Notes under the pieces: generated by a model
What the model saw: only the letters and a program-made list of their open reading frames with translations
Databases searched by the model: none
Told to the model about the DNA's origin: nothing
Part shown: one piece after another, positions 13,616 through 31,101 of the stretch
Layout of the letters: the number at the start of each line of letters is the position of its first letter
Position numbering within the stretch: the first letter of the stretch is position 1
Made by a program: the position numbers and the translations under genes
Assembly: GCA_016183325.1 (NCBI GenBank)
Contig: JACPEV010000008.1
Coordinates: forward strand, 472 to 64,471
DNA: 64,000 nucleotides
Source: Candidatus Curtissbacteria bacterium
Lineage (GTDB): Bacteria > Patescibacteriota > Microgenomatia > Curtissbacterales > GWA2-41-24
Reading direction: 5' to 3'

Positions 13616-14695
13616 TTATCTAATTTGTCTGAGGAATGTGGGGATGTCGAATTCATCCTCGTCGATTGAGGTTGGAGTTTCTTCAGAAGGTTGAGCTGTC
13701 TCCCCATCTTGCTGAGGAGTCACCTGAACGAACTTTCGTCTGGTTTCATCAAAACCTGTGGCAATAACTGTGACTTTAACCTGGTCGATGAGCTTTTCGT
13801 CGATAGTGGCACCAAAGATAATTTGGGCATCGGGATCGGCTTGACTGGTGATGACTTTGGCAGCTTCGTCAACTTCACTCATGGTCATATCGCTACCGCC
13901 AGTGATGTTGAAAAGAATGCCTCTTGCGCCGTCGATTGACGAATCTAAAAGCGGTGAGGCAATAGAAGATCTGGCTGCAGTTGATGCTCGATTTTCACCA
14001 GAGGCGGTACCTACACCCATCAATGTTGTACCGGCACTGGTCATGATAGTCTTAACATCGGCAAAATCAACGTTGATTAAGCCCGGCATGACGATGATAT
14101 CTGAAATTCCCTGAACACCTTGAGAAAGAACAGAGTCGGCAAGTTTAAACGCCTCAAGGAGAGAAACGTTCTTATCGACAACTTCAAGTAATTTTTGATT
14201 GGGAATAACAATCAACGTGTCGACTTTGTCTTTAAGACTTACAATGCCATCATCGGCGACAACCATGCGGCGAGTACCTTCAAATCCAAAAGGTTTGGTG
14301 ACTACGGCAACAGAAAGAATACCAAGTTTTCTCGCCAGCTCGGCAATAACTGGACCAGCACCTGTCCCGGTACCTCCTCCGGCACCGTAAGTTAGAAAAA
14401 CCATGTCGGCACCAGTTATTACTTCTTTGATGCGCTCTAAAGATTCTTCTGCAGCTTTTTTGCCAATCTCAGGGTCGGCACCTGCCCCAAGACCCTTGGT
14501 CAGGCCATCGCCGATTTGAACTTTAGTTTGAGCTTGATTTGCCAAGAGATGTTGTTGATCAGTGTTAACAGCCACAAAATCTACACCTTGGATTTGAGCA
14601 TTGGCGATCATGGAGTTTAAAGCATTGCAGCCACCTCCACCAATGCCAAGAACTTTTATTTTGGCGAATCTATTGACGTCGGGTTTAATTAACAT
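13616..14695 (-). CDS. ftsZ: cell-division GTPase FtsZ
   Basis: GGGTGTG tubulin signature, NTDQQ, acidic C-terminal tail …DEDEFDIPTFLRQIR. Confidence 0.95.
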   Translation of the reverse strand: MLIKPDVNRFAKIKVLGIGGGGCNALNSMIANAQIQGVDFVAVNTDQQHLLANQAQTKVQIGDGLTKGLGAGADPEIGKKAAEESLERIKEVITGADMVFLTYGAGGGTGTGAGPVIAELARKLGILSVAVVTKPFGFEGTRRMVVADDGIVSLKDKVDTLIVIPNQKLLEVVDKNVSLLEAFKLADSVLSQGVQGISDIIVMPGLINVDFADVKTIMTSAGTTLMGVGTASGENRASTAARSSIASPLLDSSIDGARGILFNITGGSDMTMSEVDEAAKVITSQADPDAQIIFGATIDEKLIDQVKVTVIATGFDETRRKFVQVTPQQDGETAQPSEETPTSIDEDEFDIPTFLRQIR

Positions 14696-14758
14696 TGAAG
14701 CGGTGACAATTTAACATAGAGGCAGGTGATTTGCAAGCGTTTTTTGCGTAAGAGAAAT

Positions 14759-16036
14759 TTACGGCAAGAGTGATTTAATCCAGTTAATACCTTTGTTAAC
14801 TACACCTTTTATTTCGATTCTTCCTACCAGAGGAAGTCTGACTTCTTCCTGTTGAAATTGAGTACCGTAGATAACTAGCCCAAGAGCAGCAGCAAAAGCC
14901 GGCGAGGCAATTTCATCAACAAGGCCTGTTGCGCCTTGCGGCAAGCCGAGCCTAACGGGCATCCCGAGTTCTTGCTTGGCGATATCAATCATACCAACTG
15001 TCGATGCTCCCCCGCCAGTTAAAACTACGCCAGAAGGAGTAAGACCAGTTGCGCCTGATTTTTGAAGCTCGAGTTTAACCATGTTGATAATTTCGCGAAT
15101 TCTAGGTTTAATGATTCCATCACTAAGAGTTTTTCTGGAAACTTGCCTTAAATCTTCCTCAATACCAAGGCCTGAAATATCTAAGTTATCTGGTTCTTTT
15201 TTATCTTGAGCCTTCCCGTTTGCACTGGATTCAACGGCGATTTTAGGAGGCTGAGACAGAGCAAGTTTAATTTTTTCAGCGGATTCAAGGGAGATGCGCA
15301 AGCCGATTGCCAAATCGTTGGTTACGTTTCTGGCGCCAATAGGTAGAACAGAGCAATAGGCGGGAGCTCCATCGGTGAAAACACAGATGTCAGTGGTACC
15401 ACCTCCGAAATCTACTAAGATTACTCCGAGTTCCTTTTCAGTATCAGTTAAAACTGAATAGGAGGAAGCAAGACCAGAAAAGACCATCCCTTCGACGTCA
15501 ACACCAACCTGACTAATGCATTTGGCGATATTTCTGAAAGCGGTGGCTGCACCGGTGACAATATGAGTTTCAACCTCCATCCTGACACCGTTCATGCCAA
15601 TTGGATCTTTAATACCGCTTTGGGAATCGACAACAAAATATCTCGGGATGACATGAAGAATTTCTCTAGACGAAGGTAAAGATATTGCCCTGGCAGCTTC
15701 AACTACTCTAGTAACATCTTCTGCTGAAATCTCTCCGTTTCTTTCAGAAACAGCAACGACTCCTTTGCTATTTTGTGAATCAATGTGAATACCGTCAACT
15801 GAAACGAAAGATGCACCAACTGAATACCCAGCCATTCTCTCAGATGATTCCAAAGATTGAGTTATGGAAGTAACGGCTTCATCAATATCGACAACCTGGC
15901 CTTTTCTTAAACCTCTTGAGGGAACCGAGGAAACTCCAATTATATTAACCTGGGACTCATTCTGGATGGTAGCAATAATGGTGGTAATCTTCGACGATCC
16001 AACATCAATACCAACAATAACTTTATCTTTAGACAT
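14759..16036 (-). CDS. ftsA: cell-division protein FtsA
   Basis: Actin-like ATPase motifs (VGIDVGSSKI, DFGGGTTD). 425 aa. Confidence 0.9.
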   Translation of the reverse strand: MSKDKVIVGIDVGSSKITTIIATIQNESQVNIIGVSSVPSRGLRKGQVVDIDEAVTSITQSLESSERMAGYSVGASFVSVDGIHIDSQNSKGVVAVSERNGEISAEDVTRVVEAARAISLPSSREILHVIPRYFVVDSQSGIKDPIGMNGVRMEVETHIVTGAATAFRNIAKCISQVGVDVEGMVFSGLASSYSVLTDTEKELGVILVDFGGGTTDICVFTDGAPAYCSVLPIGARNVTNDLAIGLRISLESAEKIKLALSQPPKIAVESSANGKAQDKKEPDNLDISGLGIEEDLRQVSRKTLSDGIIKPRIREIINMVKLELQKSGATGLTPSGVVLTGGGASTVGMIDIAKQELGMPVRLGLPQGATGLVDEIASPAFAAALGLVIYGTQFQQEEVRLPLVGRIEIKGVVNKGINWIKSLLP

Positions 16037-16158
16037 ATTTCCTTTTTCTAGAAATTTGTTAAGTGGAAATTAGAAATTGGTATTGAAATTCGAAATTTCC
16101 AATAACTAATTTCTTTAAATTTCGGCTTTCATGCTTCGAGTTTGGGATTTATTGTTAA

Positions 16159-16836
16159 TCATTGGAATTCCTTGTACTCCACAACTGGCTTGTCAAAGCG
16201 TAGATCAATTTTTGCGATTTTTGACGAATTTATTTTAGATACTATCAAGACCTGCTGTAAAGAGTCAACCTGCTCATCTGGTGATTTTTTAGAGGAAAAG
16301 ATGGCGATAGTTCCCTGTTGATTGTAAGCGGCCAGATCCTCGTTTGATATGATTCTAATATTCTGGACATTATAATCAGATTTCATAAGGGGCATTGCTA
16401 ATTTTAGCGCAAAGACTATAATTTCGTCAGTGATTTTTTGCCCAAGTTGAAGTTTTAAATTTTGAGGCAAATAAAGAGTAGGCAGATTTTGATTATCATT
16501 TTGGACTATTTGGCCGTCTTCTGTTAGGGAAAGATTACTTGCTTCAATTTTGACGACAGGTTTTTTGACTGTAATATCCAAGACAATTTTTGCCGGGAAT
16601 TCTCTTTTGAGGCTGACTTTGTCGACACAAGAATACTGGTTTTTGATTTGGGCCTCCAAGGTTTTCTGGTCAATTAAAAGAATGTTTTGATTGCCTAAGT
16701 TCAGATCGTTTAAAAGATTCTGATTTGGAATACATTGTTGACTCTGGTTTGTGACAACTTCTTTAATTTTAAGAAGCGGGGAGAAAAAGATAGATACTAA
16801 AATAATAATAACCAAAACGGGCAGCACTTTGGCCAT
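16159..16836 (-). CDS. ftsQ: FtsQ/DivIB-type cell-division protein (TM + POTRA)
   Basis: N-terminal TM segment, POTRA-like β-rich domain, position between ftsA and murG. Confidence 0.55.
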   Translation of the reverse strand: MAKVLPVLVIIILVSIFFSPLLKIKEVVTNQSQQCIPNQNLLNDLNLGNQNILLIDQKTLEAQIKNQYSCVDKVSLKREFPAKIVLDITVKKPVVKIEASNLSLTEDGQIVQNDNQNLPTLYLPQNLKLQLGQKITDEIIVFALKLAMPLMKSDYNVQNIRIISNEDLAAYNQQGTIAIFSSKKSPDEQVDSLQQVLIVSKINSSKIAKIDLRFDKPVVEYKEFQ

Positions 16837-16882
16837 ATATTAAGTATAACTCTACTGGTTAATAGTTAACAGTGAATAGTTA

Positions 16883-17045
16883 ATGGAGCTTGCTGAAAAC
16901 CTGTTAGCCTCGCAACAATGAGAAAAGACTACTTTGACAAACCATTAGTTTGTCATTCTGGCTTGTCCAGAATCCTTACTAGAATCAGATTCTGGAGTCG
17001 CTTCGCTCCCCAGAATGACAGTTTAACTTAGGTTTTCAGCAAGCT
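16883..17045. repeat. MITE/REP-like nested hairpin element in the ftsQ-murG spacer
   Basis: Outer 15-bp inverted repeat gcttgctgaaaacct/aggttttcagcaagc. Inner element 16952-17019 is bounded by GTCATTCTG/CAGAATGAC. A related element lies inside the glycosyltransferase gene at 60736. Confidence 0.45.
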
Positions 17046-17054
17046 CGTTAATGA

Positions 17055-18164
17055 TTAATAGTTAGTATATATAAAACGGGTGAGGATTTTTGCAGCGTCT
17101 TTGGGGAAGAATTTGGCGAGCTGATGAGCGCCTTTTTGATATTTTGAAAGATTTCGAGACATGTTTTGAACGGTTTTGATGAAAATTTCATGGGTTAGCA
17201 CTTCTTGTTTTAAGATAACCGCGCTTCCGGCTTTTTCCAAAATTTTGGCATTTGCCTGCTGTTCACCACTAGCTGACGCAGGCAAAGGGATTAGGATGGC
17301 AGGTTTTGCAACAGTTGCCAGTTCCCAGACAGTATTTGCACCGGAGCGGGAAATGACCAATAACGACTTTGAAAGTATGGACCCAATATCATCTGGATCA
17401 ATATCGGTAACTGGTAAGTAATTTTGTTTTTTTATTTGCTGGGCTTGTAGATGATCTTTTTTGAAGTTGGCAGTACCCAGTTGGTGAAGAACAGAGAACT
17501 GATCTAATTTATCAATTGTTTTGAAAATTAACTGATTGATAAAATGTGAGCCTTGATTGCCACCAGTAACAAAAACGAGACTTTGAGAATTTTGAAGAAA
17601 TTTTTTAATTTTAGTGTTAGAAGAAACAGTTTTGAAGATAGATGTTCTCAATAAATTACCTATAACTTCTGTCTTTGACGGGTCGAAAAATACTTTTGTT
17701 TGAGACCAGGTAAGAAACACTTTCTTAACGAAGAGTGCATTAAATTTATTGGCGAGACCTGGAACAACGGCTTGTTCATGAGTAATGGAGTCAATTCCCA
17801 AAAGCCATCCAGTAAAAACAATCGGTGATGAAACGTAGCTTCCGAAGGAAACAATTAGACTAGGTCTGATTCTAAGAAGAAAATAAAAACTTTGGAGAAA
17901 GCCAAGGGGAATTTTTAAGAGAGATAAAATTGTATATCTTGTGAATTTTCTTTGTAATCTACCTGTTACAATTTCAATAAACTCAATATTATTTTTAGTA
18001 ATTACTTGATATTCAGCAGAATAACTTTTTGAACCTTCTGTAGAATATTTACGTCCGAAAAAGTATATTTTTACTGATTCTTTTAGACGATCTTTTGATC
18101 TTAGCTCTTCTATGAGGGCGAGGGCTGGAGTGAGATGACCTCCGCAAATAACTATTTTTTTCAT
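17055..18164 (-). CDS. murG: MurG UDP-GlcNAc:lipid I GlcNAc transferase
   Basis: N-terminal G-loop ICGGHLTPALAL, GT28 fold. 369 aa. Confidence 0.8.
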   Translation of the reverse strand: MKKIVICGGHLTPALALIEELRSKDRLKESVKIYFFGRKYSTEGSKSYSAEYQVITKNNIEFIEIVTGRLQRKFTRYTILSLLKIPLGFLQSFYFLLRIRPSLIVSFGSYVSSPIVFTGWLLGIDSITHEQAVVPGLANKFNALFVKKVFLTWSQTKVFFDPSKTEVIGNLLRTSIFKTVSSNTKIKKFLQNSQSLVFVTGGNQGSHFINQLIFKTIDKLDQFSVLHQLGTANFKKDHLQAQQIKKQNYLPVTDIDPDDIGSILSKSLLVISRSGANTVWELATVAKPAILIPLPASASGEQQANAKILEKAGSAVILKQEVLTHEIFIKTVQNMSRNLSKYQKGAHQLAKFFPKDAAKILTRFIYTNY

Positions 18165-19270
18165 GACTGTCTTTTAATATTTAGCAAAATGCCGATTGAT
18201 GTCATGGTGACAAAAAGTGAAGAACCTCCGTAAGAAATGAATGGCAAGGGAACGCCAGTCAAAGGAACCAAGGCAACTACTGACGACAAATTAAAAAGGA
18301 TTTGGACGGAAAGTAAACCAATTATACCCATGGCCAAAATTTTACCTTGGTAATCAGGTGCTAATCGGGCAATATGGATGGATCTTTTTATTAAAAACAA
18401 AAAAAGACAAATCAGGAAAACTGCTCCTACAAAGCCCAGTTCTTCGACCACCACTGCGAAAATAGCATCGCTTTGTATTTCAGGAATGAAATCAAATTTA
18501 CTTCTGGAACCACCTAATCCAACCCCTAAAAGTCCTCCAGACGAAAGAGCAATTAAAATTTGATAAATCTGGTAAGAAGCACCTTGAGGATCGTGAGTTG
18601 GGTCAAAAAAAGATTTAACTCTTTCTATTCTGTAAGGGTGAGTAAAAACGGCCATAACAGCGGCCAGTATAATGGGGGGGATTATCAGAATAAAGTGAAC
18701 AATTGGGCCTCTGCCGACGAAATAAAGAATTAATGCGACAGCAATAAAAATTAGTGATGTGCCAAGATCGGGCTCTAATAATACTAAAGCACTGATAACA
18801 GCCGCTGGTAAAAAAATAACAACCAGAGCATCTGTAAATTTAATCTTGTACTTTTCAAATTTAGAAATTATGGCTGTTTCGTATAAAACGAGAGCAAGTT
18901 TGGCAACTTCTGAAGGCTGAAAAGTGAAACCTGCTGCGCTGATCCAACGTCTGGCCCCGTAAATTTTGGTGCCAACTCCTGGAATCAAAACTATCAATAA
19001 TAAAAGTATTGATATAGCCAAGAGAAAAGGCGCTACACGAATAAGTTTACGATAATCAAAAAAGCTAAAAAATCCCAAAGAAAAGAGACCAAGACTTGCC
19101 CAGATGAGCTGATTTTTAAAGTAATAAAGCTTATCGCCAAAATCCCTAAAGGCGGCAACCACTGAGGCTTCATAAATAATCACTAAGCCAAAGATAACAA
19201 GCAAGATTGTCACAACAATTAAAGGGATATCAAAGGCGCTTTTTTGAGAAAATAGATTCACCTGTCTCAT
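18161..19270 (-). CDS. ftsW: SEDS-family lipid II flippase/polymerase FtsW
   Basis: 369 aa, 10 TM helices, SEDS motifs. Positioned between murD and murG. Confidence 0.85.
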   Translation of the reverse strand: MRQVNLFSQKSAFDIPLIVVTILLVIFGLVIIYEASVVAAFRDFGDKLYYFKNQLIWASLGLFSLGFFSFFDYRKLIRVAPFLLAISILLLLIVLIPGVGTKIYGARRWISAAGFTFQPSEVAKLALVLYETAIISKFEKYKIKFTDALVVIFLPAAVISALVLLEPDLGTSLIFIAVALILYFVGRGPIVHFILIIPPIILAAVMAVFTHPYRIERVKSFFDPTHDPQGASYQIYQILIALSSGGLLGVGLGGSRSKFDFIPEIQSDAIFAVVVEELGFVGAVFLICLFLFLIKRSIHIARLAPDYQGKILAMGIIGLLSVQILFNLSSVVALVPLTGVPLPFISYGGSSLFVTMTSIGILLNIKRQS

Positions 19271-20622
19271 CTTTTTATTTTTTTGACTTCCGCCATAAAC
19301 TGCTCTCCTCTGTCTTGGTAATTTTTAAAAAGATTAAAGCTCGATGATGCCGGAGACAGGAGACAAATCTTTCCCTTTTGTGTAACTCTTCCAGCGGTTT
19401 TTACGGCTTCTTTCATATTTTTTACAAAGAAATGTTTTGGCTGATATCCCTTCTGAATTTTTATGCCGTCTAAAATTATTTTACCTGTTTGAGGGAAAAG
19501 TATTACATTTTGAATTTTTTCATCGATTATTTTTTTTGACAGCTGGGAATAATCTACCCCTCTATCATATCCTCCAACGATTAGAGTGACTACATTGGGG
19601 CTGAGAGTTTCAAGCGCAGCAATTGTAGCTTCTGGTATCGTTGCGATTGAATCATTGTAAAAATCGATTCCTTTGAAATTGCCAATATATTGAAGACGAT
19701 GTTTTACCGGTTCAAACTTCTTAACAGAATAAGCGATGGACTGGTTTGAAACTTTTAATATCTTCGCTACAGAAACGGCAGCTAAGATATTGTTTAGGTT
19801 AAATATCCCTTTTAGCTTTGTCTCATTTATTTTTAAAATTTTTTCTCCATTATAAAATACCCATTCTCCGCTTATATAAGCACCTGTTTTCAATTTTCTA
19901 CTAATGCTAAACGGGATTTTAACAGAATTCCCTTTTTCAACAAGTTCGGTTACGAGTTCTGAATCATTATTGTAAATTACAAAATCTTCTTTTTTCTGCC
20001 ATTTGATAACATTCGTTTTTGCTTTTTGGTAATTTTCAAATCCGCCGTGATAATCCAAGTGTTCTTTATAAAGATTCAGAAAAACGGAAATGTGAGGACT
20101 TGTTTTTAAATCTTGCAATTGAAAACTTGAAAGCTCGTAGACGAAGAGGCTCGTACTACTTATTTTATCTATAAAATCAAATGGCGGATTACCTATATTT
20201 CCAACAAGTTCAACGTTTACCTTCGCATCTTTTAAGATTTTATATATTAATGAGCAAGTAGTAGTTTTTCCTTTTGTGCCTGTTACACCAATAATTTTAT
20301 CTTTGTAGTTTTCAATAAATATTTTTGTCTGGGAAGTAACTTTCACTGTTGTAGACTTTGGCAAGCGCATTCCAGGTGACCTAAAAATCACCTCATAAAG
20401 ATTTAAAGATCCCATGTATTTTTTGCCCAAGTGAGGCTTTAATTTCTTATCTCTGGTTATTATTTTCTGTAAATTTGCCTCGAGTTGTTTTGGAGTTTTT
20501 TGATCAGCAATCCCTATTATTTTATAGGGAAATTTTTTTCTAATAAATTTAAGGGTTGAGACTCCTTCTTTTCCTAAACCTAAAATCAGTACTTTTTTAT
20601 CTTTCAACTCATTGAGATTCAT
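19267..20622 (-). CDS. murD: MurD-type UDP-MurNAc-L-Ala:glutamate ligase
   Basis: Mur-ligase P-loop (GVTGTKGKTTT). 451 aa. Start overlaps the upstream gene's stop by 4 nt. Confidence 0.8.
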   Translation of the reverse strand: MNLNELKDKKVLILGLGKEGVSTLKFIRKKFPYKIIGIADQKTPKQLEANLQKIITRDKKLKPHLGKKYMGSLNLYEVIFRSPGMRLPKSTTVKVTSQTKIFIENYKDKIIGVTGTKGKTTTCSLIYKILKDAKVNVELVGNIGNPPFDFIDKISSTSLFVYELSSFQLQDLKTSPHISVFLNLYKEHLDYHGGFENYQKAKTNVIKWQKKEDFVIYNNDSELVTELVEKGNSVKIPFSISRKLKTGAYISGEWVFYNGEKILKINETKLKGIFNLNNILAAVSVAKILKVSNQSIAYSVKKFEPVKHRLQYIGNFKGIDFYNDSIATIPEATIAALETLSPNVVTLIVGGYDRGVDYSQLSKKIIDEKIQNVILFPQTGKIILDGIKIQKGYQPKHFFVKNMKEAVKTAGRVTQKGKICLLSPASSSFNLFKNYQDRGEQFMAEVKKIKR

Positions 20623-22061
20623 TTTTTGATTTTTGTTTTTAAGTTTTCAGCTATCTCTCTAGGCAAAAAGTTGTCATCATCCCAAGCAGTCAATATTTCC
20701 GGTCGATGTGAATTTTTATTCGCAGAAAAGTTCTGCTTATTTAATATATTTTCTTTTGCGTATCCAAGAAGATAAGGGAGAGATTCATTTTCTTCATTTA
20801 ACTTTTTGATACTTAATCTTATACCTTCCAATATCTCTTCATATGTTCCAACACATTCAAATGGCTTTGGCTTTTCTATTCCAGTTATGTACAAGAGCAA
20901 ATTCGATAGGTCTTTTTTTGCATAGAGATCTTCATTGAAAATTCCGCTCAATTCTTTTTTATTAACAAATGGATATAAAGAGATGTAAGTGGAAAGGCAC
21001 TTGGGGCATTTCCCACACCAACTGTCAGTTACCTGGCCCCTGTTGCAGCTTTTGAATACTTTGAAATATTTATTGTATGTTGAAAATAATTTTGAAATCT
21101 GAATTTCATAAAGGGGTCTAAGCAAACTTATGTACTCGATATCATCTGCAAGATTTTCTTTAAGATAGACTCTAAACGATTTTTCAAATTCAAAACTTTT
21201 AGAATACTGATGGTTTATCTTCTCACCCAAAAATTCAATATTCTCTTCGTTTGAGCTCCTTTCGTTTGAAGATATAACGAATTTGTAATCGAAGAGTAAA
21301 GCACAGAGAACTGAAAGGAAAGCAAGGTATGCGGAAAAAGGGGTGTGTCCATTTAGGTATCCGTTTGCGTTAAGTTCTAAAAGCTTTTTATCGATTTCTC
21401 TTGTTACCACTATCTGATCCTTAGCTTGCGATTCATTTTTCACTGCAATCGACGCAACAGTAGGATTGAGCATAAGAACAGACACTTCCTTTTTTAGCTC
21501 TTTAAGTACTTCCAGAGAAACAGTCGAGTCACGGCCGCCGCTATTCAAGACAACATATCTATCTTTATGTGTATTCTTATCTTTTTGATAATTATTTTTT
21601 GCATCATTTATGATATTTACAAAATTACCTTCATTGAAGTTTATATTGTTCCGGTAAAAGAATTCGCCTAGTCCTTCAATCAGTAAATTCTTCCACCATA
21701 CAATTTGATTTCGGTCTAAGCTACCCGTTTTTATCTCGATAGTTGGAGAACATGTTGCCTTCCAATAACTTATCATCTCGATCAGTCCCAAATTAAAGAC
21801 AAAATTTTTAACTATTGCTTCGTCTAAAGTGGAAAAAACTGCCTGATTGATATTTTCTATTGTTACTTTCGGATTAAATTTTATGCTTGGAGGAATTTCG
21901 AACAAAAAAGAAATTACAAGAGAATCACCTTCTTTTTTATAGTCAAAGCTTTCATACAAAAATGTAGGATGTTTATCTCTTAAAGAAGCAACTTTATCCA
22001 TTTGCTTTAAAAAAATGACAGCCAGAGGCCAAAAGTTGCAAATATCATTTGTGCAAGCCAA
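20619..22061 (-). CDS. PP-loop ATP-pyrophosphatase-family protein (QueC-like Zn ribbon) embedded in the division/cell-wall (dcw) operon; candidate MurL-type epimerase
   Basis: VVLNSGGRDSTVSL matches the SGGxDS PP-loop. CNRGQVTDSWCGKCPKC is a QueC-like Cys cluster. 480 aa. It overlaps murD by 4 nt and mraY by 55 nt. Confidence 0.5.
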   Translation of the reverse strand: MACTNDICNFWPLAVIFLKQMDKVASLRDKHPTFLYESFDYKKEGDSLVISFLFEIPPSIKFNPKVTIENINQAVFSTLDEAIVKNFVFNLGLIEMISYWKATCSPTIEIKTGSLDRNQIVWWKNLLIEGLGEFFYRNNINFNEGNFVNIINDAKNNYQKDKNTHKDRYVVLNSGGRDSTVSLEVLKELKKEVSVLMLNPTVASIAVKNESQAKDQIVVTREIDKKLLELNANGYLNGHTPFSAYLAFLSVLCALLFDYKFVISSNERSSNEENIEFLGEKINHQYSKSFEFEKSFRVYLKENLADDIEYISLLRPLYEIQISKLFSTYNKYFKVFKSCNRGQVTDSWCGKCPKCLSTYISLYPFVNKKELSGIFNEDLYAKKDLSNLLLYITGIEKPKPFECVGTYEEILEGIRLSIKKLNEENESLPYLLGYAKENILNKQNFSANKNSHRPEILTAWDDDNFLPREIAENLKTKIKK

Positions 22062-23038
22062 AATCTAAAAACTATTTTAGGTTCTTCCCAGCCTTTATTT
22101 TGGAGCCAAAGATGGATGGGAGCGACTTCAAACAACTTTTTGCCCCTTAGTTTTTTGGAGAGAAGTTGAAGAAGTGATGAGGTGACTTCTATGACAAAAA
22201 CTCCACCAATTACGGCCAGGGCAATAGGCTTACCTAGAAGTAAACCGGACACGGCTAAGGTCGCCCCAAGAGAAAGAGCGCCTACGTCTCCGAGCCAAAT
22301 TCTGGCGGGCCAAATATTAAAATATAAAAAAGCAATGAGTGAACCAATTAATAATCCTATGAATGACGAGAGGGTTGTATCCAGTATTGAGCGAGACATA
22401 ATTAAAAAAGCAATTAAGGAGATGACTAATAAGCCTGCCGCCAGTCCATCCAGTCCATCTGATATGTTTACAGCGTTGGCAAATGAAACAATTACAAAAG
22501 CTGCAAAAGGCACATAGAAAATTCCTAGATCAAAAACATCAAAGAACCTGATATTAACCACATCAATTCCCAGATCTTTATAGAGTATCCAAGAAATTAC
22601 AAGTGCTAAAATCCATTGAATTAAAAATTTATATCTGAATCTTAAGCCCCAAAAATGTGCTCTTTTAAATCCAAAAGTTTTCCTTAGATCATCATATAGG
22701 CCTAAAATCCCGAATGAAAGAAAGGTGAAGAGAATTAATTGGATTTCACTTTTGTATGGATATATAGAAGTTCTTTCTATACCAAAAATTGGGGATAGGC
22801 TTGTTACAAAGAGAAATAAGATTGCAACGACAAAAATAATCAGGGTACCGCCGCCGACAGGAGTTCCAATTTTGTGGGCGTGGAGTTTGTCAAAAATTGG
22901 GGTTCTGGCTTCGAAGATATCTCTGGTTTTTTGCTTTTGGCGCTGAAATTTTATCTTGTAAAGTATATTAATGAATGGGACCAAAAGAACGCTGATGACA
23001 AAAAAAGACAAGAGGACTAATCCTAACAGTTGGACCAT
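22007..23038 (-). CDS. mraY: phospho-MurNAc-pentapeptide translocase MraY
   Basis: 343 aa, 10 TM helices, DDxxD-type motifs (NAVNISDGLDGLA). Confidence 0.85.
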   Translation of the reverse strand: MVQLLGLVLLSFFVISVLLVPFINILYKIKFQRQKQKTRDIFEARTPIFDKLHAHKIGTPVGGGTLIIFVVAILFLFVTSLSPIFGIERTSIYPYKSEIQLILFTFLSFGILGLYDDLRKTFGFKRAHFWGLRFRYKFLIQWILALVISWILYKDLGIDVVNIRFFDVFDLGIFYVPFAAFVIVSFANAVNISDGLDGLAAGLLVISLIAFLIMSRSILDTTLSSFIGLLIGSLIAFLYFNIWPARIWLGDVGALSLGATLAVSGLLLGKPIALAVIGGVFVIEVTSSLLQLLSKKLRGKKLFEVAPIHLWLQNKGWEEPKIVFRFWLAQMIFATFGLWLSFF

Positions 23039-23150
23039 AAATTAAAAATTCGAAATCAGAAGCTCGAAATACGAAACTTTTTGAAATTGGAAAATTTTAA
23101 TTTTGAATTTGTTTCGATATTCGATATTCGGATTTACCCTTCATTATATC

Positions 23151-24377
23151 TTATTCCAGTGTCCCACAGTGGTAGCAATTAATCCTGGTCGATTTGCCAA
23201 GTAAACCTGAGATAATTCTCTCAAGGTGGGCATGACGAGAGCCTTTGACTAAAATTATAGTATTTGCAAGAGGAATTTTTTTTAGCTCCTTGATAACTTC
23301 ATTTGTACTCTTAGTGGCTGATGTTTTGCCTTTAAAACCATTTCTCTTGGTACTTTTGTTAATTTCTTCGGCTACGCTACCAACAGTCATCAGATAGTTG
23401 ACACTGCTTCTGGCGACTTTTTGACCTAGTAATCGATGTTCTTCTTTCGATATCTTGCCTAAATCTTTCATTTCACCAAAGACCGCGATTTTCTTCTTTT
23501 TCTTTCCAAGATCAATTAAAGTGTTGAGTGCTTCTTCTGCCGCTTTCGGTGATGAATTATAAGTATCGTCTAAAATGCAAATTTCTCCTTTTTTAATCGG
23601 GTTGAGCCGGTGCTGTGGAGGTTTAACTTGGAACAAACCTCTGGCAATTTGCTTCAGAGTCAGACCACAGATAATTCCAACTGTGGCAGCAGCATACGCT
23701 GAAAGCAATTGGTGACGACCGATTATTTTCCAGGAAACAGAAGCTTTTTGGCTATTATAGTGCATACGGAATCTGGATCCTTTCAGATTTTGTGCGAAGT
23801 GAGAAATTTTTATTCCATCTTTTGCTTTTTGGCCAAACCACCAAACACGAGCATGAGTCATTGGAGCCACTTTGACTACTTCTGGATCATCTGCATTTAA
23901 AACTGCATAGCCACTTTTAGGAAGACTTTTAACGAGTTTTGCTTTTTCACTGGCAACACCTTCAAGGCCGCCAAAGTATTTTGTGTGGGTTGGGGCTATT
24001 ATTGTGACGACAGCTATTTTAGGAGTGACTATTGATAGATAGTGATCCATATCGCCAACTTGTTCAACACCAAATTCTAGAATCATCTTTTGGTCCCAAG
24101 GTTTGGCAGAAAGTATAGTTTTAGGAATACGAAATGTTGGGTCCAAATTTTCTTCTCCGACGACTGTTTTGAATTTCTGAGAAAGAACGCTCGCAATAGC
24201 GTTTTGAGTTAAGGTCTTACCAACACTGCCAGTTATGGCGATTATTTCAAGATTTGGCAGAAGCTTCAGGTAATGTTTGGCAGCAAGAGTCCTGGAAATA
24301 TGAATCGGTTTTTTCCAGGCTTTGACTTGGCGATAAACATCCAAGTTGAACATATATTGAAAAACTATTATATACAA
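23151..24377 (-). CDS. murF: MurF UDP-MurNAc-tripeptide:D-Ala-D-Ala ligase
   Basis: ITGSVGKTLT P-loop, Mur-ligase central and C-terminal domains. Short N-terminal domain. Confidence 0.75.
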   Translation of the reverse strand: MYIIVFQYMFNLDVYRQVKAWKKPIHISRTLAAKHYLKLLPNLEIIAITGSVGKTLTQNAIASVLSQKFKTVVGEENLDPTFRIPKTILSAKPWDQKMILEFGVEQVGDMDHYLSIVTPKIAVVTIIAPTHTKYFGGLEGVASEKAKLVKSLPKSGYAVLNADDPEVVKVAPMTHARVWWFGQKAKDGIKISHFAQNLKGSRFRMHYNSQKASVSWKIIGRHQLLSAYAAATVGIICGLTLKQIARGLFQVKPPQHRLNPIKKGEICILDDTYNSSPKAAEEALNTLIDLGKKKKKIAVFGEMKDLGKISKEEHRLLGQKVARSSVNYLMTVGSVAEEINKSTKRNGFKGKTSATKSTNEVIKELKKIPLANTIILVKGSRHAHLERIISGLLGKSTRINCYHCGTLE

Positions 24378-24406
24378 TAATCTCCATTAACGCAAACTAT
24401 GGGGCA

Positions 24407-25420
24407 TTACGAACTCTTGAATGCGAAACGAATGATTTTGTCTAAGAGCTGCGGGTAGGAAATACCATCAGCTTGCGCGGCCTTGGGCAGAAGAGACATG
24501 GGGGTTAATCCTGGAATAGTATTAACTTCTAAAACACAGACGTTATTCCCTTTTATAATCATGTCTACCCTACCGAAACCTCTACATCCAAGAGATCTAT
24601 ATGCATCAAGCGCTGCTTTTTGAGCTATCTTGGTTAATTTTTGGCTGAGCCTGGCTGGGACGATTTCTTTAGTTTGATTGTCGAAGTATTTGGCATTGTA
24701 ATCAAAAAATTGGCGAGTTGGCACAATTTCAACTAAGGGCAAAGCCGTTGGATTATCGTTACCAAGGATTGATCCGGTGAGTTCTATGCCTTTTATATAT
24801 TCCTCGACCAGAGCAAAACGACTAAAGCTTAAGGCTATCTCTAGAGCTTGTTTTAACTCTTTTCTTTTATTCACTTTGGAAGATCCAATTGATGATCCCT
24901 GGTTAGACGGTTTAATAAAAAGAGGGAAAGAAAATTGTCTCAAGACTTTTTTAAGACTGTTACCTTTTTCGAAAACGAGATATCGCGGGGTTTCCAAGCC
25001 TGCCTGAGTAAACAATTTCCTTGAGTAAATTTTGTCCATTCCGAGAGCTGAGGCTAAAACCCCGGATCCAGTGTAAGGAATGTCTATCAATTCTAAAAAT
25101 CCTTGAATAGTTCCATCTTCCCCAAAGTGTCCATGCATAGCTATAAAAAACAATTGACAATTGACAATTGACAATTGACCAAAATGATAATTTACTTTAC
25201 CAAGAATAAAAGATTTTCCATCTTTTGAAATTACAATGGGTAAAACTTCGTATTTTTGGAGATCCAAATTCTTGACCACTTCCCTACCCGAAATCAGAGA
25301 GATTTCATGTTCGGGAGATTTGCCGCCCATTAAAACGGCAACTTTGATTTTGCCAGTTTTGTTATTTTGTTTCTTTGATTTTGGCTCCAATGGTTGAGAG
25401 CCTTTCGACGATGTTTTCAT
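24407..25420 (-). CDS. ddl: D-alanine--D-alanine ligase
   Basis: ATP-grasp signature, EHEISLISGREV, C-terminal NTIPG. It contains an in-frame (caattgaca)x4 insertion, see 25151-25180. Confidence 0.85.
   Translation of the reverse strand: MKTSSKGSQPLEPKSKKQNNKTGKIKVAVLMGGKSPEHEISLISGREVVKNLDLQKYEVLPIVISKDGKSFILGKVNYHFGQLSIVNCQLFFIAMHGHFGEDGTIQGFLELIDIPYTGSGVLASALGMDKIYSRKLFTQAGLETPRYLVFEKGNSLKKVLRQFSFPLFIKPSNQGSSIGSSKVNKRKELKQALEIALSFSRFALVEEYIKGIELTGSILGNDNPTALPLVEIVPTRQFFDYNAKYFDNQTKEIVPARLSQKLTKIAQKAALDAYRSLGCRGFGRVDMIIKGNNVCVLEVNTIPGLTPMSLLPKAAQADGISYPQLLDKIIRFAFKSS
25151..25180 (+). repeat. tandem nonamer (CAATTGACA)x3.3 inside the ddl coding sequence
   Basis: Read directly. In frame, it encodes …QLSIVNCQLFF… just before the conserved HG.FGEDG of Ddl. 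Confidence 0.6.
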
Positions 25421-26615
25421 ATCCCCTCTCTATTAATTCCGCTCTTTCTATGCGGCTTTCCCCTTGTGCAGCCAAAGCTGCTATAACAAGTGCAATGCCT
25501 GCCCTGATGTCTGGTGTGTCAAGTCTCTGGCTGTGAAGCTTAGTGGGGCCGTAAACTAAAACACGATGAGGATCAGCAATTTCTACTTTTGCGCCCATAG
25601 ATAGAAGTTTATCAACGAAAAACATACGTGATTCGTACATCCAATCATGAAGTATAGTGACACCTTCCGCTTGAGTTGCCAAAACAATCATTGGTGCCAT
25701 TAAGTCCGTTGGGAATCCGGGCCAAACATCAGTGACAACTTTTTCGATCGCAGTTAATTTGCCATCTCTGACTGTAAGAGTGTCTTGCTCGGTTTTGAAG
25801 TTAACACCAAATCTTGAAAGGGTTAAAAGGATCATATCTAGATCTTCTTCGATTACTGGAGAAATGTTGACTGTACCCTTAGTCACGGCAGCAAGAATCG
25901 CAAAAGTTCCGACTTCGATGTGATCAGGGCGGATAGTATGACGAGTTCCAGAAAGTTCATCAATACCCGTGATGGTAAGGATATTAGAACCAACCCCAGA
26001 TATAAGAGCTCCCATTTTAATTAAAAAATTACATAGATCGACAACATGCGGCTCTGAGGCAGCACGTTTAATAACAGTCTGCCCCTCTGCAAGACAAGCG
26101 GCCATGATGGCATTTTCGGTTGCGGTAACTGACGATTCCTGCAAAAAAATGTTTGCTCCCTTAAGTTTTCGAGCTTCCGCAACATAATAATCATCTTCCT
26201 TTTTAACAACTGCTCCGAGAGCTTCAAGCGCTTGAACATGGGTTTCAAGAGGACGTCTGCCGATTATATCTCCGCCAGGGTATCCCATTTTAACTTCACC
26301 AATCCTTGCTAACATCGGGCCAAGAAGAAGAACGGAGGCTCTTAACTTTTCTGTTAATTGGGAAGGGAATTGAGTCGCCTTGATTTTTTGGCAATCGACA
26401 GTTAAAGTCGATTTATCTTGAGTAATTTTTGCGCCGCAAGCTTCGAGCAGCTGAATCATCACGGAAACGTCGGAAATATTGGGAACGTTTTCTACTATAC
26501 AGGTGTCTTTGGTTAAAAGACAGGCAGTCATAATGGGAAGTACTGAGTTTTTATTACCAGCGATTTTGATGTCTCCTGAAAGCCTGTTTGCACCGATTAC
26601 TTCAAAGGTAGCCAT
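25362..26615 (-). CDS. murA: UDP-GlcNAc 1-carboxyvinyltransferase MurA
   Basis: 417 aa, EPSP-synthase-like fold, catalytic Cys region (…RPLE…). Confidence 0.9.
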   Translation of the reverse strand: MATFEVIGANRLSGDIKIAGNKNSVLPIMTACLLTKDTCIVENVPNISDVSVMIQLLEACGAKITQDKSTLTVDCQKIKATQFPSQLTEKLRASVLLLGPMLARIGEVKMGYPGGDIIGRRPLETHVQALEALGAVVKKEDDYYVAEARKLKGANIFLQESSVTATENAIMAACLAEGQTVIKRAASEPHVVDLCNFLIKMGALISGVGSNILTITGIDELSGTRHTIRPDHIEVGTFAILAAVTKGTVNISPVIEEDLDMILLTLSRFGVNFKTEQDTLTVRDGKLTAIEKVVTDVWPGFPTDLMAPMIVLATQAEGVTILHDWMYESRMFFVDKLLSMGAKVEIADPHRVLVYGPTKLHSQRLDTPDIRAGIALVIAALAAQGESRIERAELIERGYENIVERLSTIGAKIKETK

Positions 26616-26620
26616 TATAA

Positions 26621-26656
26621 AAAATTGAAAATTGAAAATTGAAAATTGAAAATTTC
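26621..26656 (+). repeat. tandem octamer (AAATTGAA)x4 in the murA-murB spacer
   Basis: Read directly. Related to the CAATTGACA repeats. Confidence 0.5.
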
Positions 26657-26662
26657 ATTAAT

Positions 26663-27664
26663 TTAATCAAAGTCTCCGATGTAAAAGATTTCTTCCTTTA
26701 GATCAAGGCCATATGTTTGTTTAGCTTTAACCTTGATTAGATTAATTAATTTTATCACGTCGGCGGCCTTTGCTTCAGCTGTATTGATTATGAAATTGGC
26801 ATGGTGCTCTGAGACTTGGGCGCCTCCAATTTTTGTACCTTTAAGGCCAAGGCTCTCGATAATATAACCAGTAGACGTCGTTAAATTGGGTGTTGACAGC
26901 CTGATCGCATCTTTGTGGTTAATATTCCTAAAGGTACATCCAGAACAGGCAATTCCAATTGGTTGTTCTGCATTTCTTCGCTTGACTCCTTCCATGGCTT
27001 TTTGCCAAAGAACTGCCTTATCTTGAGCGGCGTCTAGCCTGAAGGTAGCATCCAAGACAATTTCGTCAGTATCTTGTATCGTTGAGTGGTCGTATGAAAA
27101 TTTGAAATAATCTTGAGCAACATTTTTTTTCTGGCCATTTTTAGGATCGAAAAGTGTTGCAGATACTAGGCGATTGCCAAGAAATTCTGCTCTTTCCACT
27201 TCAAAGTGTGCATTGATCTTTAAACCGCCGCCAACTGTTCCTGGAACAGAAAGTAAAAATTCCAGGCCTTCCAGGCCTTGGTCGATAGTAAATCTGGCAA
27301 GTTGATTCATGGGGGTACCGGAAGCTGTCCAAACCAGAGCGCTTTTAATACCTTGGCCATTTTTATTAATAGTACCTTTAATACCAACGAGTTTAACTTG
27401 AGCTGCCCTATTTTTGACAACAAGACCATCGAATCCTTTGTCACTGACTAAAACATTGGCTCCTCCGCCCAGAACAACAAATGGGACTTGGTACTCTAAA
27501 ACAGTTTTTAAGGCAAGTTTCAGGTCTTCGATGCTTTTGGCTTCGAATAATAACCTTGCTGGTCCACCAATTTTAAAGTAAGTATGCTTTGAAAGAGACT
27601 CGTTTTCGCGGACTCGCAGTATTCCGAGAATATTCTTTATTTCTTCTGTGATTTGCTGATCCAT
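26663..27664 (-). CDS. murB: UDP-N-acetylenolpyruvoylglucosamine reductase MurB
   Basis: FAD-binding PCMH motifs (KIGGPA…, GGGANVL). Start set at MDQQITEE; the ORF track extends the frame 20 codons further upstream. Confidence 0.8.
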   Translation of the reverse strand: MDQQITEEIKNILGILRVRENESLSKHTYFKIGGPARLLFEAKSIEDLKLALKTVLEYQVPFVVLGGGANVLVSDKGFDGLVVKNRAAQVKLVGIKGTINKNGQGIKSALVWTASGTPMNQLARFTIDQGLEGLEFLLSVPGTVGGGLKINAHFEVERAEFLGNRLVSATLFDPKNGQKKNVAQDYFKFSYDHSTIQDTDEIVLDATFRLDAAQDKAVLWQKAMEGVKRRNAEQPIGIACSGCTFRNINHKDAIRLSTPNLTTSTGYIIESLGLKGTKIGGAQVSEHHANFIINTAEAKAADVIKLINLIKVKAKQTYGLDLKEEIFYIGDFD

Positions 27665-31039: not shown

Positions 31040-31101
31040 CTAATGTAATTGTACACAGTTAAGCAACATGCGTAGCTTATGATGATGTTTTTTCAGTAGG
31101 C

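What the first reader, a model, noticed from the sequence alone, without database searches (positions are those of the whole stretch)
20619..22061. PP-loop ATPase wedged between murD and mraY: candidate MurL-type UDP-MurNAc-L-Ala-L-Glu epimerase
A 480-aa protein with the SGGRDS PP-loop and a QueC-like Cys cluster is translationally embedded in the division/cell-wall (dcw) operon, overlapping murD by 4 nt and mraY by 55 nt. PP-loop enzymes adenylate carboxylates. An ATP-dependent, AMP-forming epimerisation of the glutamate residue after an L-Glu-adding MurD2 is the chemistry reported for the MurD2/MurL route in bacteria that lack glutamate racemase. If this protein is MurL-like, the adjacent murD would be a MurD2. 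I cannot confirm homology to characterised MurL from memory, so this is inference from motifs and synteny.
Basis: inference. Interest (0 to 1): 0.6.

Follow-up and report, generated by a model that had tools for sequence, protein, structure and literature searches.

The report
MurL epimerase gene beside murD
This gene in an uncultured groundwater bacterium (Candidatus Curtissbacteria) most likely encodes MurL, the ATP-using enzyme that flips L-glutamate to D-glutamate on the cell-wall precursor; close relatives carry an ordinary glutamate racemase gene at exactly this position, so the supposedly rare MurD2/MurL route is common and interchangeable with the classical one.

Summary
The ORF is real, but it most likely starts at the ATG at 22001. 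That gives 460 aa and a 5-nt gap after mraY, not 480 aa with a 55-nt overlap. The SGGRDS PP-loop, the QueC-like four-Cys cluster and the ATGA overlap with murD are confirmed.

The only significant family match is Xanthomonadales MurL (NF041275, E 4e-69). Identity to Xanthomonas sacchari MurL is 31% (E 2e-50), with every motif shared. The AlphaFold model (pLDDT 95) has a QueC-like PP-loop core, which fits AMP-forming chemistry.

MurL relatives sit beside murD, or are fused to it, in 71 of 80 species genomes from many phyla. The best evidence comes from the closest relatives (MraY 71-81% identical). There the mraY-ftsW slot holds either murI+murD or murL+murD, never both. Flanking genes are equally similar in both types, but MurD is 68-71% versus 37-40% identical to the window's.

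All MurL-linked MurDs form one clade, and nearly all carry the Glu+Arg pair that sets L-Glu specificity in X. oryzae MurD2.

Not shown: enzyme activity, and absence of murI elsewhere in this genome. This is a new member of a known kind, of moderate interest.

The parts
20619..22001 (-). [quoted passage not shown]
   Evidence: ORF. The start is supported by the homolog alignment and by the identical NCBI protein. NF041275 MurL E 3.9e-69. 31% identity to X. sacchari MurL. Model pLDDT 95.4.
22002..22061 (-). In-frame upstream extension from a TTG start; probably not translated. It overlaps the 3' end of mraY.
   Evidence: It is present only in the longest-ORF call. No homolog has this N-terminal extension. 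The NCBI protein is 460 aa.
21525..21542 (-). PP-loop ATP pyrophosphatase motif SGGRDS (residues 154-159)
   Evidence: Sequence. G155, G156 and D158 are invariant in 113 homologs. In the model it is a strand-loop-helix. It aligns with the PP-loops of QueC and TtuA.
21198..21353 (-). Conserved core motifs NGHTPFS (217-223), SNERS (245-249) and INHQYSK (262-268); candidate substrate-binding or catalytic residues
   Evidence: N217-P221, E247, N263-Q265 and K268 are invariant. The motifs are shared with X. sacchari MurL and with the Pseudonocardia paralog.
20997..21050 (-). QueC-like four-Cys cluster S-C319-N...W-C329-G-K-C332-P-K-C335; predicted zinc site
   Evidence: All four Cys are invariant. 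The spacing and the CGxCxxC pattern match E. coli QueC. The best structural matches are QueC-family proteins. Metal binding is inferred, not shown.
20844..20867 (-). KPFECVGT motif containing Cys383, which is nearly invariant; candidate acid/base residue for epimerisation
   Evidence: K379 is invariant and P380-T386 are at least 90% conserved. The motif is present in X. sacchari MurL. The catalytic role is inference only.
19267..20622 (-). [quoted passage not shown]
   Evidence: TIGR01087 342 bits; that model also scores the Xanthomonas MurD2 ortholog above its cut-off. The protein falls in the pure clade of 66 MurL-linked MurDs. It is 68-71% identical to MurL-linked MurDs of relatives and 37-40% identical to their MurI-linked MurDs.
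20062..20064 (-). MurD Glu187 codon, equivalent to E. coli D182 and X. oryzae MurD2 E197
   Evidence: Alignments. This residue is not diagnostic on its own, because MurI-linked CPR MurDs also have Glu here.
19561..19563 (-). MurD Arg354 codon, equivalent to E. coli K348 and X. oryzae MurD2 R358; the site that separates the two MurD types in this lineage
   Evidence: Arg is present in all 72 MurL-linked or MurL-fused MurDs that could be read at this position. Lys is present in all 40 MurI-linked or mraY-adjacent MurDs of relatives that could be read there.
22007..23038 (-). mraY, directly upstream of murL (5-nt gap)
   Evidence: ORF. MraY lies directly upstream of MurL in 31 of 80 MurL loci. 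Relatives are 53-81% identical.
29843..31039 (-). [quoted passage not shown]
   Evidence: TIGR01085 399 bits and NF001126 378.5 bits, both above their cut-offs.
13616..38365 (-). Division and cell-wall cluster on one strand: rsmH, PBP/ftsI, metK, an ORF with no family match, murE, glmU(N-terminal half)::murC, murB, murA, ddl, murF, mraY, murL, murD, ftsW, murG, ftsQ, ftsA, ftsZ
   Evidence: It contains no glutamate racemase and no class IV aminotransferase.

Best explanation
[quoted passage not shown] The murD immediately downstream encodes its partner, an L-glutamate-adding MurD2.

Proposed sequence of events:
1. MurD2 ligates L-Glu, not D-Glu, onto UDP-MurNAc-L-Ala.
2. MurL binds ATP at its PP-loop (SGGRDS) and adenylates the alpha-carboxylate of the terminal L-Glu, releasing PPi.
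3. The acyl-adenylate makes the C-alpha proton acidic. It may also cyclise to an oxazolone with the Ala carbonyl.
4. The proton is removed and returned from the opposite face.
5. [quoted passage not shown]

ATP consumption makes the inversion one-way. The cell would need neither a glutamate racemase nor a free D-Glu pool.

Shown here: homology, motifs, predicted fold, gene linkage and fusions, the murI/murL slot swap, and the MurD signature and clade.

Established by others for Xanthomonas, Micromonospora and Salinispora enzymes only: L-Glu ligation, ATP to AMP, and one-way L-to-D epimerisation (PMC8788868, PMC5808125).

Inferred: adenylation at the PP-loop, zinc at the Cys cluster, the identity of the catalytic bases, and the oxazolone option.
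For: - Family match. NF041275 (MurL) is the only significant family: E 3.9e-69 over model positions 39-385 of 447. Relatives that sources name as the epimerase are 45-47% identical to the window protein and score about the same against that model, 254 bits.
- Pairwise match. 31% identity and E 2e-50 to annotated X. sacchari MurL. GGxDS, NGHxP, SNExS, NHQxSK, RPLxE, SCN..WCGxCPKC and KPFECVG are all shared.
- Fold. In the AF2 model (pLDDT 95.4) the nearest solved folds are QueC-family PP-loop ATPases, which adenylate a carboxylate: QatC, B. subtilis QueC (TM 0.68 normalised to the target) and Cap9 (TM 0.74).
- Linkage. Of 80 species genomes with MurL, 54 have murD within 200 nt downstream, 13 have it within 3.4 kb, and 4 have a MurL::MurD fusion.
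- Fusions. 29 of the best 150 family representatives are longer than 700 aa. All 10 that were sampled are fused to a Mur ligase (in either order) or to MurB.
- Slot swap. In loci with MraY 71-81% identical to the window's, the mraY-ftsW slot holds murI+murD or murL+murD. The murI call rests on TIGR00067, 214 bits against a cut-off of 147. Across the 80 MraY-related loci, 29 have MurI, 5 have MurL, and none has both.
- Cassette behaviour. Flanking MurF, MraY, FtsW and MurG are equally similar to the window's in both locus types. MurD is 68-71% identical in murL loci and 37-40% in murI loci.
- MurD clade. All 66 MurL-linked MurDs, including the window's, form one pure neighbour-joining clade apart from the MurI-linked ones.
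- MurD signature. The window's MurD has Glu187 and Arg354, equivalent to X. oryzae MurD2 E197 and R358 (PMC8788868).
- Downstream step. A D-Glu-type MurE lies in the same operon.
Against: - The NF041275 score of 233 bits is far below NCBI's equivalog cut-off of 700. The protein therefore belongs to a different, uncharacterised branch of the family.
- The X. sacchari MurD2 ortholog falls outside the clade of MurL-linked MurDs that contains the window's MurD. Equivalence of the ligases rests on the signature residues and the linkage.
- Three MurL-linked MurDs have Asp+Arg rather than Glu+Arg (L002, L030, L042).
- Glu at the D182 position and a non-Lys residue at the K319 position also occur in MurI-linked MurDs, so they are not diagnostic.
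- Only 64 kb of the genome was seen, so a murI or D-amino-acid transaminase elsewhere is not excluded.
- At least one CPR bacterium is reported to have a working glutamate racemase. I know this only from the title of Penalver et al. 2024 in the reference list of PMC11974145; the paper itself was not available.
- No activity data exist for any member of this branch.
Confidence: 0.87

Rival explanations
1. The protein is a QueC-like PP-loop enzyme that adenylates the alpha-carboxylate of the precursor's glutamate. It then passes the acyl group to ammonia or another nucleophile, for example to give iso-glutamine, instead of epimerising it.
For: The core fold and the Cys cluster are QueC-like. QueC chemistry is carboxylate to amide to nitrile with ammonia (established knowledge). 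Alpha-carboxyl amidation of D-Glu is a known cell-wall modification, carried out by MurT/GatD (established knowledge). No member of this branch has been assayed.
Against: Homology is to MurL, whose product is the D-Glu epimer with AMP release (PMC8788868). Similarity to QueC outside the PP-loop is seen only at the fold level. The gene replaces murI, not an amidase-type function, at the same slot. The partner MurD carries the L-Glu-type Glu+Arg pair, so an L-to-D inversion is still required.
Confidence: 0.05
2. The protein is a tRNA- or nucleoside-modifying PP-loop enzyme (QueC, TtuA, MnmA or TilS type) that happens to lie in the division and cell-wall cluster.
For: There are weak hits to the QueC N-terminus (26 bits), to TtuA (E 0.0016; E 0.04 in PDB) and to PADLOC QueC (17.8 bits).
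Against: These matches cover only the first 35-65 residues around the PP-loop, or are very weak. TIGR00364 QueC scores 14 bits against a cut-off of 150. No RNA-binding domains were detected. There is no queuosine or thiolation gene context. Linkage and fusion to Mur enzymes are conserved across phyla.
Confidence: 0.02
3. The gene is a true MurL homolog but is redundant here. The genome also has murI or a D-amino-acid transaminase elsewhere, and the adjacent MurD accepts D-Glu, so D-Glu supply does not depend on MurL.
For: Only 64 kb of the genome was examined. Some CPR bacteria reportedly have an active glutamate racemase (title cited in PMC11974145). TIGR01087 classifies the MurD as the D-Glu ligase.
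Against: In the relatives murI and murL are alternative occupants of one slot and were never seen together. Small CPR genomes rarely keep redundant routes (general knowledge). TIGR01087 also scores the Xanthomonas MurD2 ortholog above its cut-off, so it cannot separate the two ligase types. The window's MurD belongs to the MurL-linked clade and carries Arg at the discriminating site.
Confidence: 0.08

Closest known systems
[quoted passage not shown]
   Same: Homologous along most of its length (HMM E 3.9e-69; 31% identity to the X. sacchari ortholog). All conserved motifs are shared, including the PP-loop, the four-Cys cluster and KPFECVG. The gene lies directly upstream of, and overlaps, a murD that carries Glu+Arg at the specificity positions.
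   Different: It scores 233 bits against an equivalog cut-off of 700 and belongs to a separate, much larger branch that includes CPR, Acidobacteriota, Chloroflexota, Clostridia, Bacteroidales and others. Here the pair is embedded in the division and cell-wall operon between mraY and ftsW. In X. sacchari it sits next to a lysC/lysA-type gene, outside such a cluster. No member of this branch has been assayed.
[quoted passage not shown]
   Same: The window's MurD has Glu, Ile, Arg and Phe at E. coli positions D182, K319, K348 and L416. The X. sacchari MurD2 ortholog has Glu, Ile, Arg, Pro and Phe at D182, K319, K348, A414 and L416. Both are partnered with MurL.
   Different: It has Ser instead of Pro at the A414 position; the P433A mutant of X. 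oryzae MurD2 kept its specificity (PMC8788868). It is only 27% identical to the X. sacchari protein, which falls outside the clade of MurL-linked MurDs that contains the window's.
QueC (7-cyano-7-deazaguanine synthase) and the QueC-like proteins QatC and Cap9
   Same: They share the PP-loop ATPase core with the SGGxDS motif and a C-x8/9-CGxCxxC cluster at a similar distance from the PP-loop. They are the best structural matches. They work the same way in that a carboxylate is activated with ATP to give AMP.
   Different: Sequence similarity is limited to the PP-loop. MurL has an extra N-terminal domain of about 140 aa and a C-terminal helical domain. The substrate and the gene context are different. 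It is not a member of the QueC family (TIGR00364 14 bits against a cut-off of 150).
MurI, glutamate racemase
   Same: It has the same physiological job, supplying the D-Glu of the peptide stem. In close relatives it occupies the same chromosomal slot between mraY and murD.
   Different: It is unrelated in sequence and fold. It is cofactor-independent and reversible, and it acts on free glutamate, whereas MurL is ATP-driven, one-way and acts on the nucleotide-linked dipeptide (PMC8788868).

Membership tests
[quoted passage not shown] | Significant, near full-length sequence homology to MurL of the characterised lineage | tested here: met
   NF041275 E 3.9e-69, model positions 39-385 of 447. BLASTP to X. 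sacchari MurL gives 31% identity over 324 aa, E 2e-50. No other family scores better than E 1e-3.
[quoted passage not shown] | Score above NCBI's curated equivalog cut-off for the Xanthomonadales model | tested here: not met
   233 bits against a cut-off of 700. Eight relatives from other phyla, including two that sources name as the epimerase, also score only 232-275 bits. The cut-off therefore delimits the order Xanthomonadales, not the whole family.
[quoted passage not shown] | Gene paired with a murD | tested here: met
   4-nt ATGA overlap with murD. The same pairing occurs in X. sacchari. In 71 of 80 MurL loci murD is adjacent, nearby or fused.
[quoted passage not shown] | ATP-dependent, AMP-forming chemistry | tested here: inconclusive
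   The PP-loop motif is present and invariant, and the fold is QueC-like. This fits the chemistry but does not demonstrate it.
[quoted passage not shown] | [quoted passage not shown] | not testable with these tools
   This needs an enzyme assay.
[quoted passage not shown] | The organism lacks glutamate racemase and D-amino-acid transaminase | tested here: inconclusive
   None is present in the 64-kb window or in the 80 MurL loci. In close relatives murI and murL exclude each other at the same slot. The rest of this genome was not available.
[quoted passage not shown] | Glu and Arg at the positions of X. oryzae MurD2 E197 and R358 (E. coli D182 and K348) | tested here: met
   Glu187 and Arg354. 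Arg is found in all 72 readable MurL-linked MurDs. Lys is found in all 40 readable MurI-linked or mraY-adjacent MurDs of relatives.
[quoted passage not shown] | Preference for L-Glu over D-Glu | not testable with these tools
   This needs an enzyme assay. TIGR01087 does not separate MurD from MurD2.
QueC (7-cyano-7-deazaguanine synthase) | Full-length match to the QueC models | tested here: not met
   Pfam QueC matches only residues 169-232 of the 480-aa ORF (profile positions 2-62 of 210). TIGR00364 scores 14 bits against a cut-off of 150. hhalign aligns 34 columns.
tRNA-modifying PP-loop enzymes (TtuA, MnmA, TilS) | Family-level match together with RNA-binding domains | tested here: not met
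   TtuA scores 17.6 bits against a cut-off of 450. The PDB TtuA match has E 0.04 over 54 residues. No further domains were detected.

The most novel reading that the evidence does not exclude
The MurD2/MurL route may not be a rarity of Xanthomonas and a few other genera. It may be a major, mobile alternative to glutamate racemase across bacteria, including much of the Candidate Phyla Radiation. On this reading, murL-murD2 and murI-murD behave as interchangeable two-gene cassettes at one slot of the division and cell-wall operon. Lineages with murL-murD2 would make all their wall D-Glu on the nucleotide precursor, with no free D-Glu pool. MurL itself would be a QueC-derived, zinc-binding PP-loop adenylating enzyme, which would settle its so far unexplained use of ATP.
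Probability: 0.5. Interest if true: 0.6.

Novelty: new member of a known kind. Interest (0 to 1): 0.45.

Why it matters
- Annotation. It assigns a function to a protein deposited as 'hypothetical'. It also implies that the neighbouring 'D-glutamate ligase' annotation is probably wrong about stereochemistry. The standard murD model cannot tell the two ligases apart.
- Distribution. The reviews I could read describe the pathway as limited to a few genera and propose it as a narrow-spectrum antibiotic target. Here it appears in at least 505 species-representative genomes, in about 1,600 protein clusters at 50% identity, and in many phyla. That changes the target's expected spectrum. It also affects metabolic reconstructions that score peptidoglycan synthesis as incomplete when murI is missing.
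- Comparative evidence. The murI/murL slot swap among close relatives gives a clean case for functional equivalence.
- Mechanism. The PP-loop and QueC-like fold gives a concrete, testable mechanism for an enzyme that its discoverers described as lacking known domains.

Tried and rejected
- TTG start at 22061 (480 aa): rejected in favour of the ATG at 22001.
- Source contig: a look-up by exact protein found nothing on record, so the rest of the genome could not be read.
- Profile comparison: the MurL alignment against a single E. coli QueC sequence aligned only the PP-loop. The QueC likeness of the Cys cluster rests on pattern, spacing and the Foldseek matches.
- First MurD signature: I initially took Glu at E. 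coli D182 and a non-Lys residue at K319 as diagnostic of MurD2, using six canonical MurDs (five from PDB structures plus the E. coli genome sequence) as controls. MurI-linked MurDs of close relatives also have Glu and Phe/Tyr/Ser at these positions. I therefore dropped that reading in favour of the Glu+Arg pair and clade membership.
- Defence-system role (QatC or Cap9 type): rejected. PADLOC gives only 17.8 bits for QueC, and the gene context is cell-wall synthesis.
- Literature: searches found no paper linking MurL or MurD2 to CPR bacteria or to a PP-loop. Penalver et al. 2024 on a CPR glutamate racemase was not held.
- murI in the window: regex and phmmer searches were negative.
Full report
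**1. What is in the sequence**

The minus strand carries an ORF at 20619..22061, 480 aa from a TTG.
- The first ATG is at 22001. It lies 5 nt after the mraY stop codon (22007-22009).
- An alignment of 24 homologs shows that they all begin within a few residues of this ATG, just before the conserved LRxKHPxFxYxSF stretch.
- The 460-aa product is identical to a deposited protein, 'hypothetical protein HYU92_02705 [Candidatus Curtissbacteria bacterium]', from a 67-kb contig.
- The gene is therefore 20619..22001. The 55-nt overlap with mraY is an artefact of the longest-ORF call.
- The ATGA overlap with murD (20619-20622) is real.
- SGGRDS lies at residues 154-159, and a cluster S-C319-x9-C329-G-K-C332-P-K-C335 follows 160 residues later.
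- In 113 homologs G155, G156, D158 and all four Cys are invariant. So are H219, E247, N263-H264-Q265 and K268. A fifth Cys (C383, in KPFECVGT) is conserved in at least 90%.

**2. What family it is**

- Pfam (local copy) sees only the first 60 positions of QueC, at 26 bits.
- In NCBIfam, NF041275, the Xanthomonadales MurL equivalog, scores E 3.9e-69 and 233 bits over model positions 39-385 of 447. The next hits are TtuA at E 0.0016 and QueC at E 0.022.
- The score is below the curated cut-off of 700. Eight relatives from other phyla score 232-275 bits, including two that NCBI or JGI name 'UDP-N-acetyl-alpha-D-muramoyl-L-alanyl-L-glutamate epimerase'. The cut-off therefore delimits the order, not the family.
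- A tblastn search of PLSDB found a 508-kb Xanthomonas sacchari record with annotated murL and murD side by side.
- The window protein is 31% identical to that MurL over 324 residues (E 2e-50), and every conserved motif is shared.
- X. sacchari is a congener of X. oryzae, where the activities of XOO_1319 (MurL) and XOO_1320 (MurD2) were shown (PMC8788868, PMC5808125).

**3. Fold**

- An AlphaFold2 model built on 113 sequences is confident (mean pLDDT 95.4, pTM 0.94).
- Foldseek against the PDB finds no full-length match, so no solved MurL structure was found among PDB entries released up to April 2026.
- The best matches are QueC-family PP-loop ATPases. These are QatC (E 4e-5), B. subtilis QueC (TM 0.68 normalised to the target, 219 columns) and Cap9 (TM 0.74). 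TtuA, MnmA and argininosuccinate synthase follow.
- The E. coli QueC motif C-x8-CGHCAAC has the same form as the MurL cluster and a similar distance from the PP-loop.
- MurL therefore looks like a QueC-type adenylating core (about residues 145-345) flanked by an N-terminal alpha/beta domain (about 1-140) and a C-terminal helical domain.
- The discoverers wrote that MurL 'lacks known conserved domains' while noting that it needs ATP and forms AMP (PMC5808125, PMC8788868). A PP-loop explains that chemistry.
- I found no paper in the held library that makes this link. All homologs carry two precomputed Pfam families absent from my local copy (PF26298, PF26299), so database curators already know the family.

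**4. Linkage to murD across bacteria**

- The best 80 come from Parcubacteria, Microgenomates and Saccharibacteria. They also come from Acidobacteriota, Chloroflexota, Rokubacteria, Methylomirabilia, Clostridia (including the cultured Mordavella massiliensis), Bacteroidales, Bdellovibrionota, a cyanobacterium and Alphaproteobacteria.
- In 54 of these loci murD starts within 200 nt downstream on the same strand. In 13 it lies within 3.4 kb. In 4 MurL and MurD are one polypeptide. Of the 9 loci without a murD, 4 end at the contig edge.
- MraY is directly upstream in 31 loci, the arrangement typical of CPR.
- A profile search of 1.84 billion cluster representatives gave 1,612 proteins at E<=1e-30. 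Of the best 150, 29 are longer than 700 aa.
- I scanned ten of these long proteins. Eight carry a Mur ligase before or after the MurL part; in three Pfam recognises the MurD-type N-domain. One carries a ligase with the MurC/MurE-type N-domain. One is a MurB::MurL fusion.
- All fusion partners are enzymes that build the UDP-MurNAc peptide.

**5. The decisive comparison: murI and murL share one slot**

I scanned metagenome contigs with the window's MraY, a gene that says nothing about the D-Glu route.
- Among the relatives with MraY 71-81% identical, the space between mraY and ftsW is filled in one of two ways.
- Most have a 259-260-aa gene followed by murD. That gene is a glutamate racemase: TIGR00067 213.7 bits against a cut-off of 146.65, phmmer against E. 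coli MurI E 1e-36 to 1e-46, and the FDSGVGG, ACNTA and GCTHFP motifs.
- Two loci (L088, L093) have murL followed by murD, as the window does. Three more distant loci (L160, L162, L165) also do.
- In all, 29 loci have MurI, 5 have MurL, and none has both.
- Identity of the flanking proteins to the window's is the same in both locus types. MurF is 59-67%, MraY 74-80%, FtsW 61-68% and MurG 51-59% identical.
- MurD is 68-71% identical in the murL loci and only 37-40% in the murI loci.
- The racemase and its ligase, and the epimerase and its ligase, therefore behave as alternative two-gene cassettes.
- In a neighbour-joining tree of 110 MurDs rooted on E. coli, all 65 MurL-linked MurDs plus the window's form one pure clade. 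A separate clade of 38 holds only MurI-linked and mraY-adjacent MurDs.

**6. MurD specificity residues, with a correction**

- The review reports that X. oryzae MurD2 E197, R358, P433 and F435 replace E. coli D182, K348, A414 and L416. The E197D/R358K double mutant becomes a D-Glu ligase, and E. coli K319T gains some L-Glu use (PMC8788868).
- The window's MurD has Glu187, Ile326, Arg354, Ser427 and Phe429 at D182, K319, K348, A414 and L416. X. sacchari has Glu, Ile, Arg, Pro and Phe.
- Against six canonical MurDs (five from PDB structures plus the E. coli genome sequence) I first read Glu at D182 and a non-Lys residue at K319 as diagnostic.
- The MurI-linked MurDs of close relatives overturn that reading. 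They have Glu, then Phe, Tyr or Ser, then Lys.
- What separates the two types is the K348 position. Arg is present in all 72 MurL-linked or fused MurDs that could be read there. Lys is present in all 40 readable MurI-linked or mraY-adjacent ones.
- Streptococcal canonical MurD has Thr and Arg (PMC8788868). The marker is therefore the Glu+Arg pair, which agrees with the double-mutant result.
- Three MurL-linked proteins have Asp+Arg (L002, L030, L042).
- TIGR01087 scores the window's MurD, a MurI-linked MurD, a MurL-linked MurD and the Xanthomonas MurD2 ortholog all above its cut-off. It cannot tell the types apart.

**7. Context in the window**

- One strand carries rsmH, a class B PBP, metK, an ORF with no family match, murE, a GlmU-N-terminal::MurC fusion, murB, murA, ddl, murF, mraY, murL, murD, ftsW, murG, ftsQ, ftsA and ftsZ.
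- MurE passes the cut-offs of the D-Glu:meso-DAP ligase models, so the pathway needs the D-Glu dipeptide.
- No ORF of 260-371 aa matches a glutamate racemase or class IV aminotransferase family.
- A phmmer search with E. coli MurI finds nothing in the six-frame translation of the window or of the 80 MurL loci.

**8. Mechanism**

- Taken from experiments on the Xanthomonas, Micromonospora and Salinispora enzymes: MurD2 adds L-Glu; MurL converts the L-Glu dipeptide to the D-Glu form with one ATP, giving AMP, and does not run backwards (PMC8788868).
- Shown here: the window's pair is homologous to that pair and linked in the same way. The PP-loop and the QueC-like core give the ATP-to-AMP site.
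- Inferred: adenylation of the alpha-carboxylate, zinc at the four Cys, proton exchange by conserved residues (C383, H219, H264 and K268 are candidates), and a possible oxazolone intermediate.

**9. Limits**

- There is no activity data for this branch of the family.
- The rest of the genome was not available, so a murI elsewhere is not excluded.
- At least one CPR bacterium reportedly has an active glutamate racemase. I have only the title of that paper, from a reference list.
- The Xanthomonas MurD2 ortholog falls outside the MurL-linked MurD clade that holds the window's protein.

**10. Verdict**

This is a new, divergent member of the known MurL/MurD2 system in a phylum where the papers I could search do not describe it. 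The new points are the breadth of the family, the natural fusions, the murI/murL cassette swap and the QueC-like PP-loop fold.

Noticed in passing
window 27756..29843 (-): A 695-aa fusion. The N-terminal uridylyltransferase half of GlmU (residues 10-262, with no acetyltransferase half) is joined to a complete MurC (residues 265-687). In the other loci MurC is a stand-alone protein of about 400-430 aa.
   Followed up: partly
window 29843..31039 (-): MurE passes its family cut-offs but aligns only from model position 71 onward. It appears to lack the usual N-terminal UDP-binding domain.
   Followed up: no
L030 5977-8253, L042 5950-8259, L051 5986-8310, L059 5956-8484; proteins P0123, P0126, P0128, P0130, P0155, P0162, P0172, P0207, P0208, P0267: Natural fusions of MurL with a Mur ligase occur in either order. 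There is also one fusion with MurB (P0155) and one with a ligase carrying a MurC/MurE-type N-domain (P0130). 29 of the best 150 family representatives are longer than 700 aa.
   Followed up: partly
L084 4911-6311 (Pseudonocardia alni plasmid pPaSha1, NZ_CP052772.1); also NZ_CP011869.1 and NZ_CP010991.1: Actinomycete plasmids carry a MurL-like gene annotated as hypothetical. The P. alni copy is 27% identical to the window protein and keeps all motifs. It has no murD next to it and is flanked by WD40, ParA-like and HTH genes, so it may act on a different substrate.
   Followed up: partly
L083 (Xanthomonas sacchari R1, NZ_CP010410.1, 508,653 bp, labelled plasmid): This 'plasmid' carries murL, the only murD seen in the stretch, a lysC/lysA fusion, ssb and a polyprenyl synthetase. 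It looks like a chromosome piece or a chromid rather than a plasmid.
   Followed up: no
L086-L165 (relatives found with MraY): Many relatives have murD directly after mraY with neither murI nor murL in the slot. Some have ftsW directly after mraY with no murD within 6 kb (for example L153, L156-L158, L163). The organisation of this part of the cluster is very fluid among Microgenomates.
   Followed up: no
window 41423..50843 (-): A run of five large ORFs (1323, 664, 448, 286 and 371 aa). Four have no Pfam match. The 664-aa ORF has only a winged-helix HTH hit below the Pfam gathering cut-off.
   Followed up: no
window 31102..31926 (-): A 274-aa ORF between murE and metK, inside the cell-wall cluster, has no match in Pfam or NCBIfam.
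   Followed up: no
window 39026..40621 (-): A 531-aa class II glutamine amidotransferase is most similar to PurF (239 bits, below the cut-off of 350). It lies just upstream of the cluster. It is not GlmS, because no SIS domains were found.
   Followed up: no
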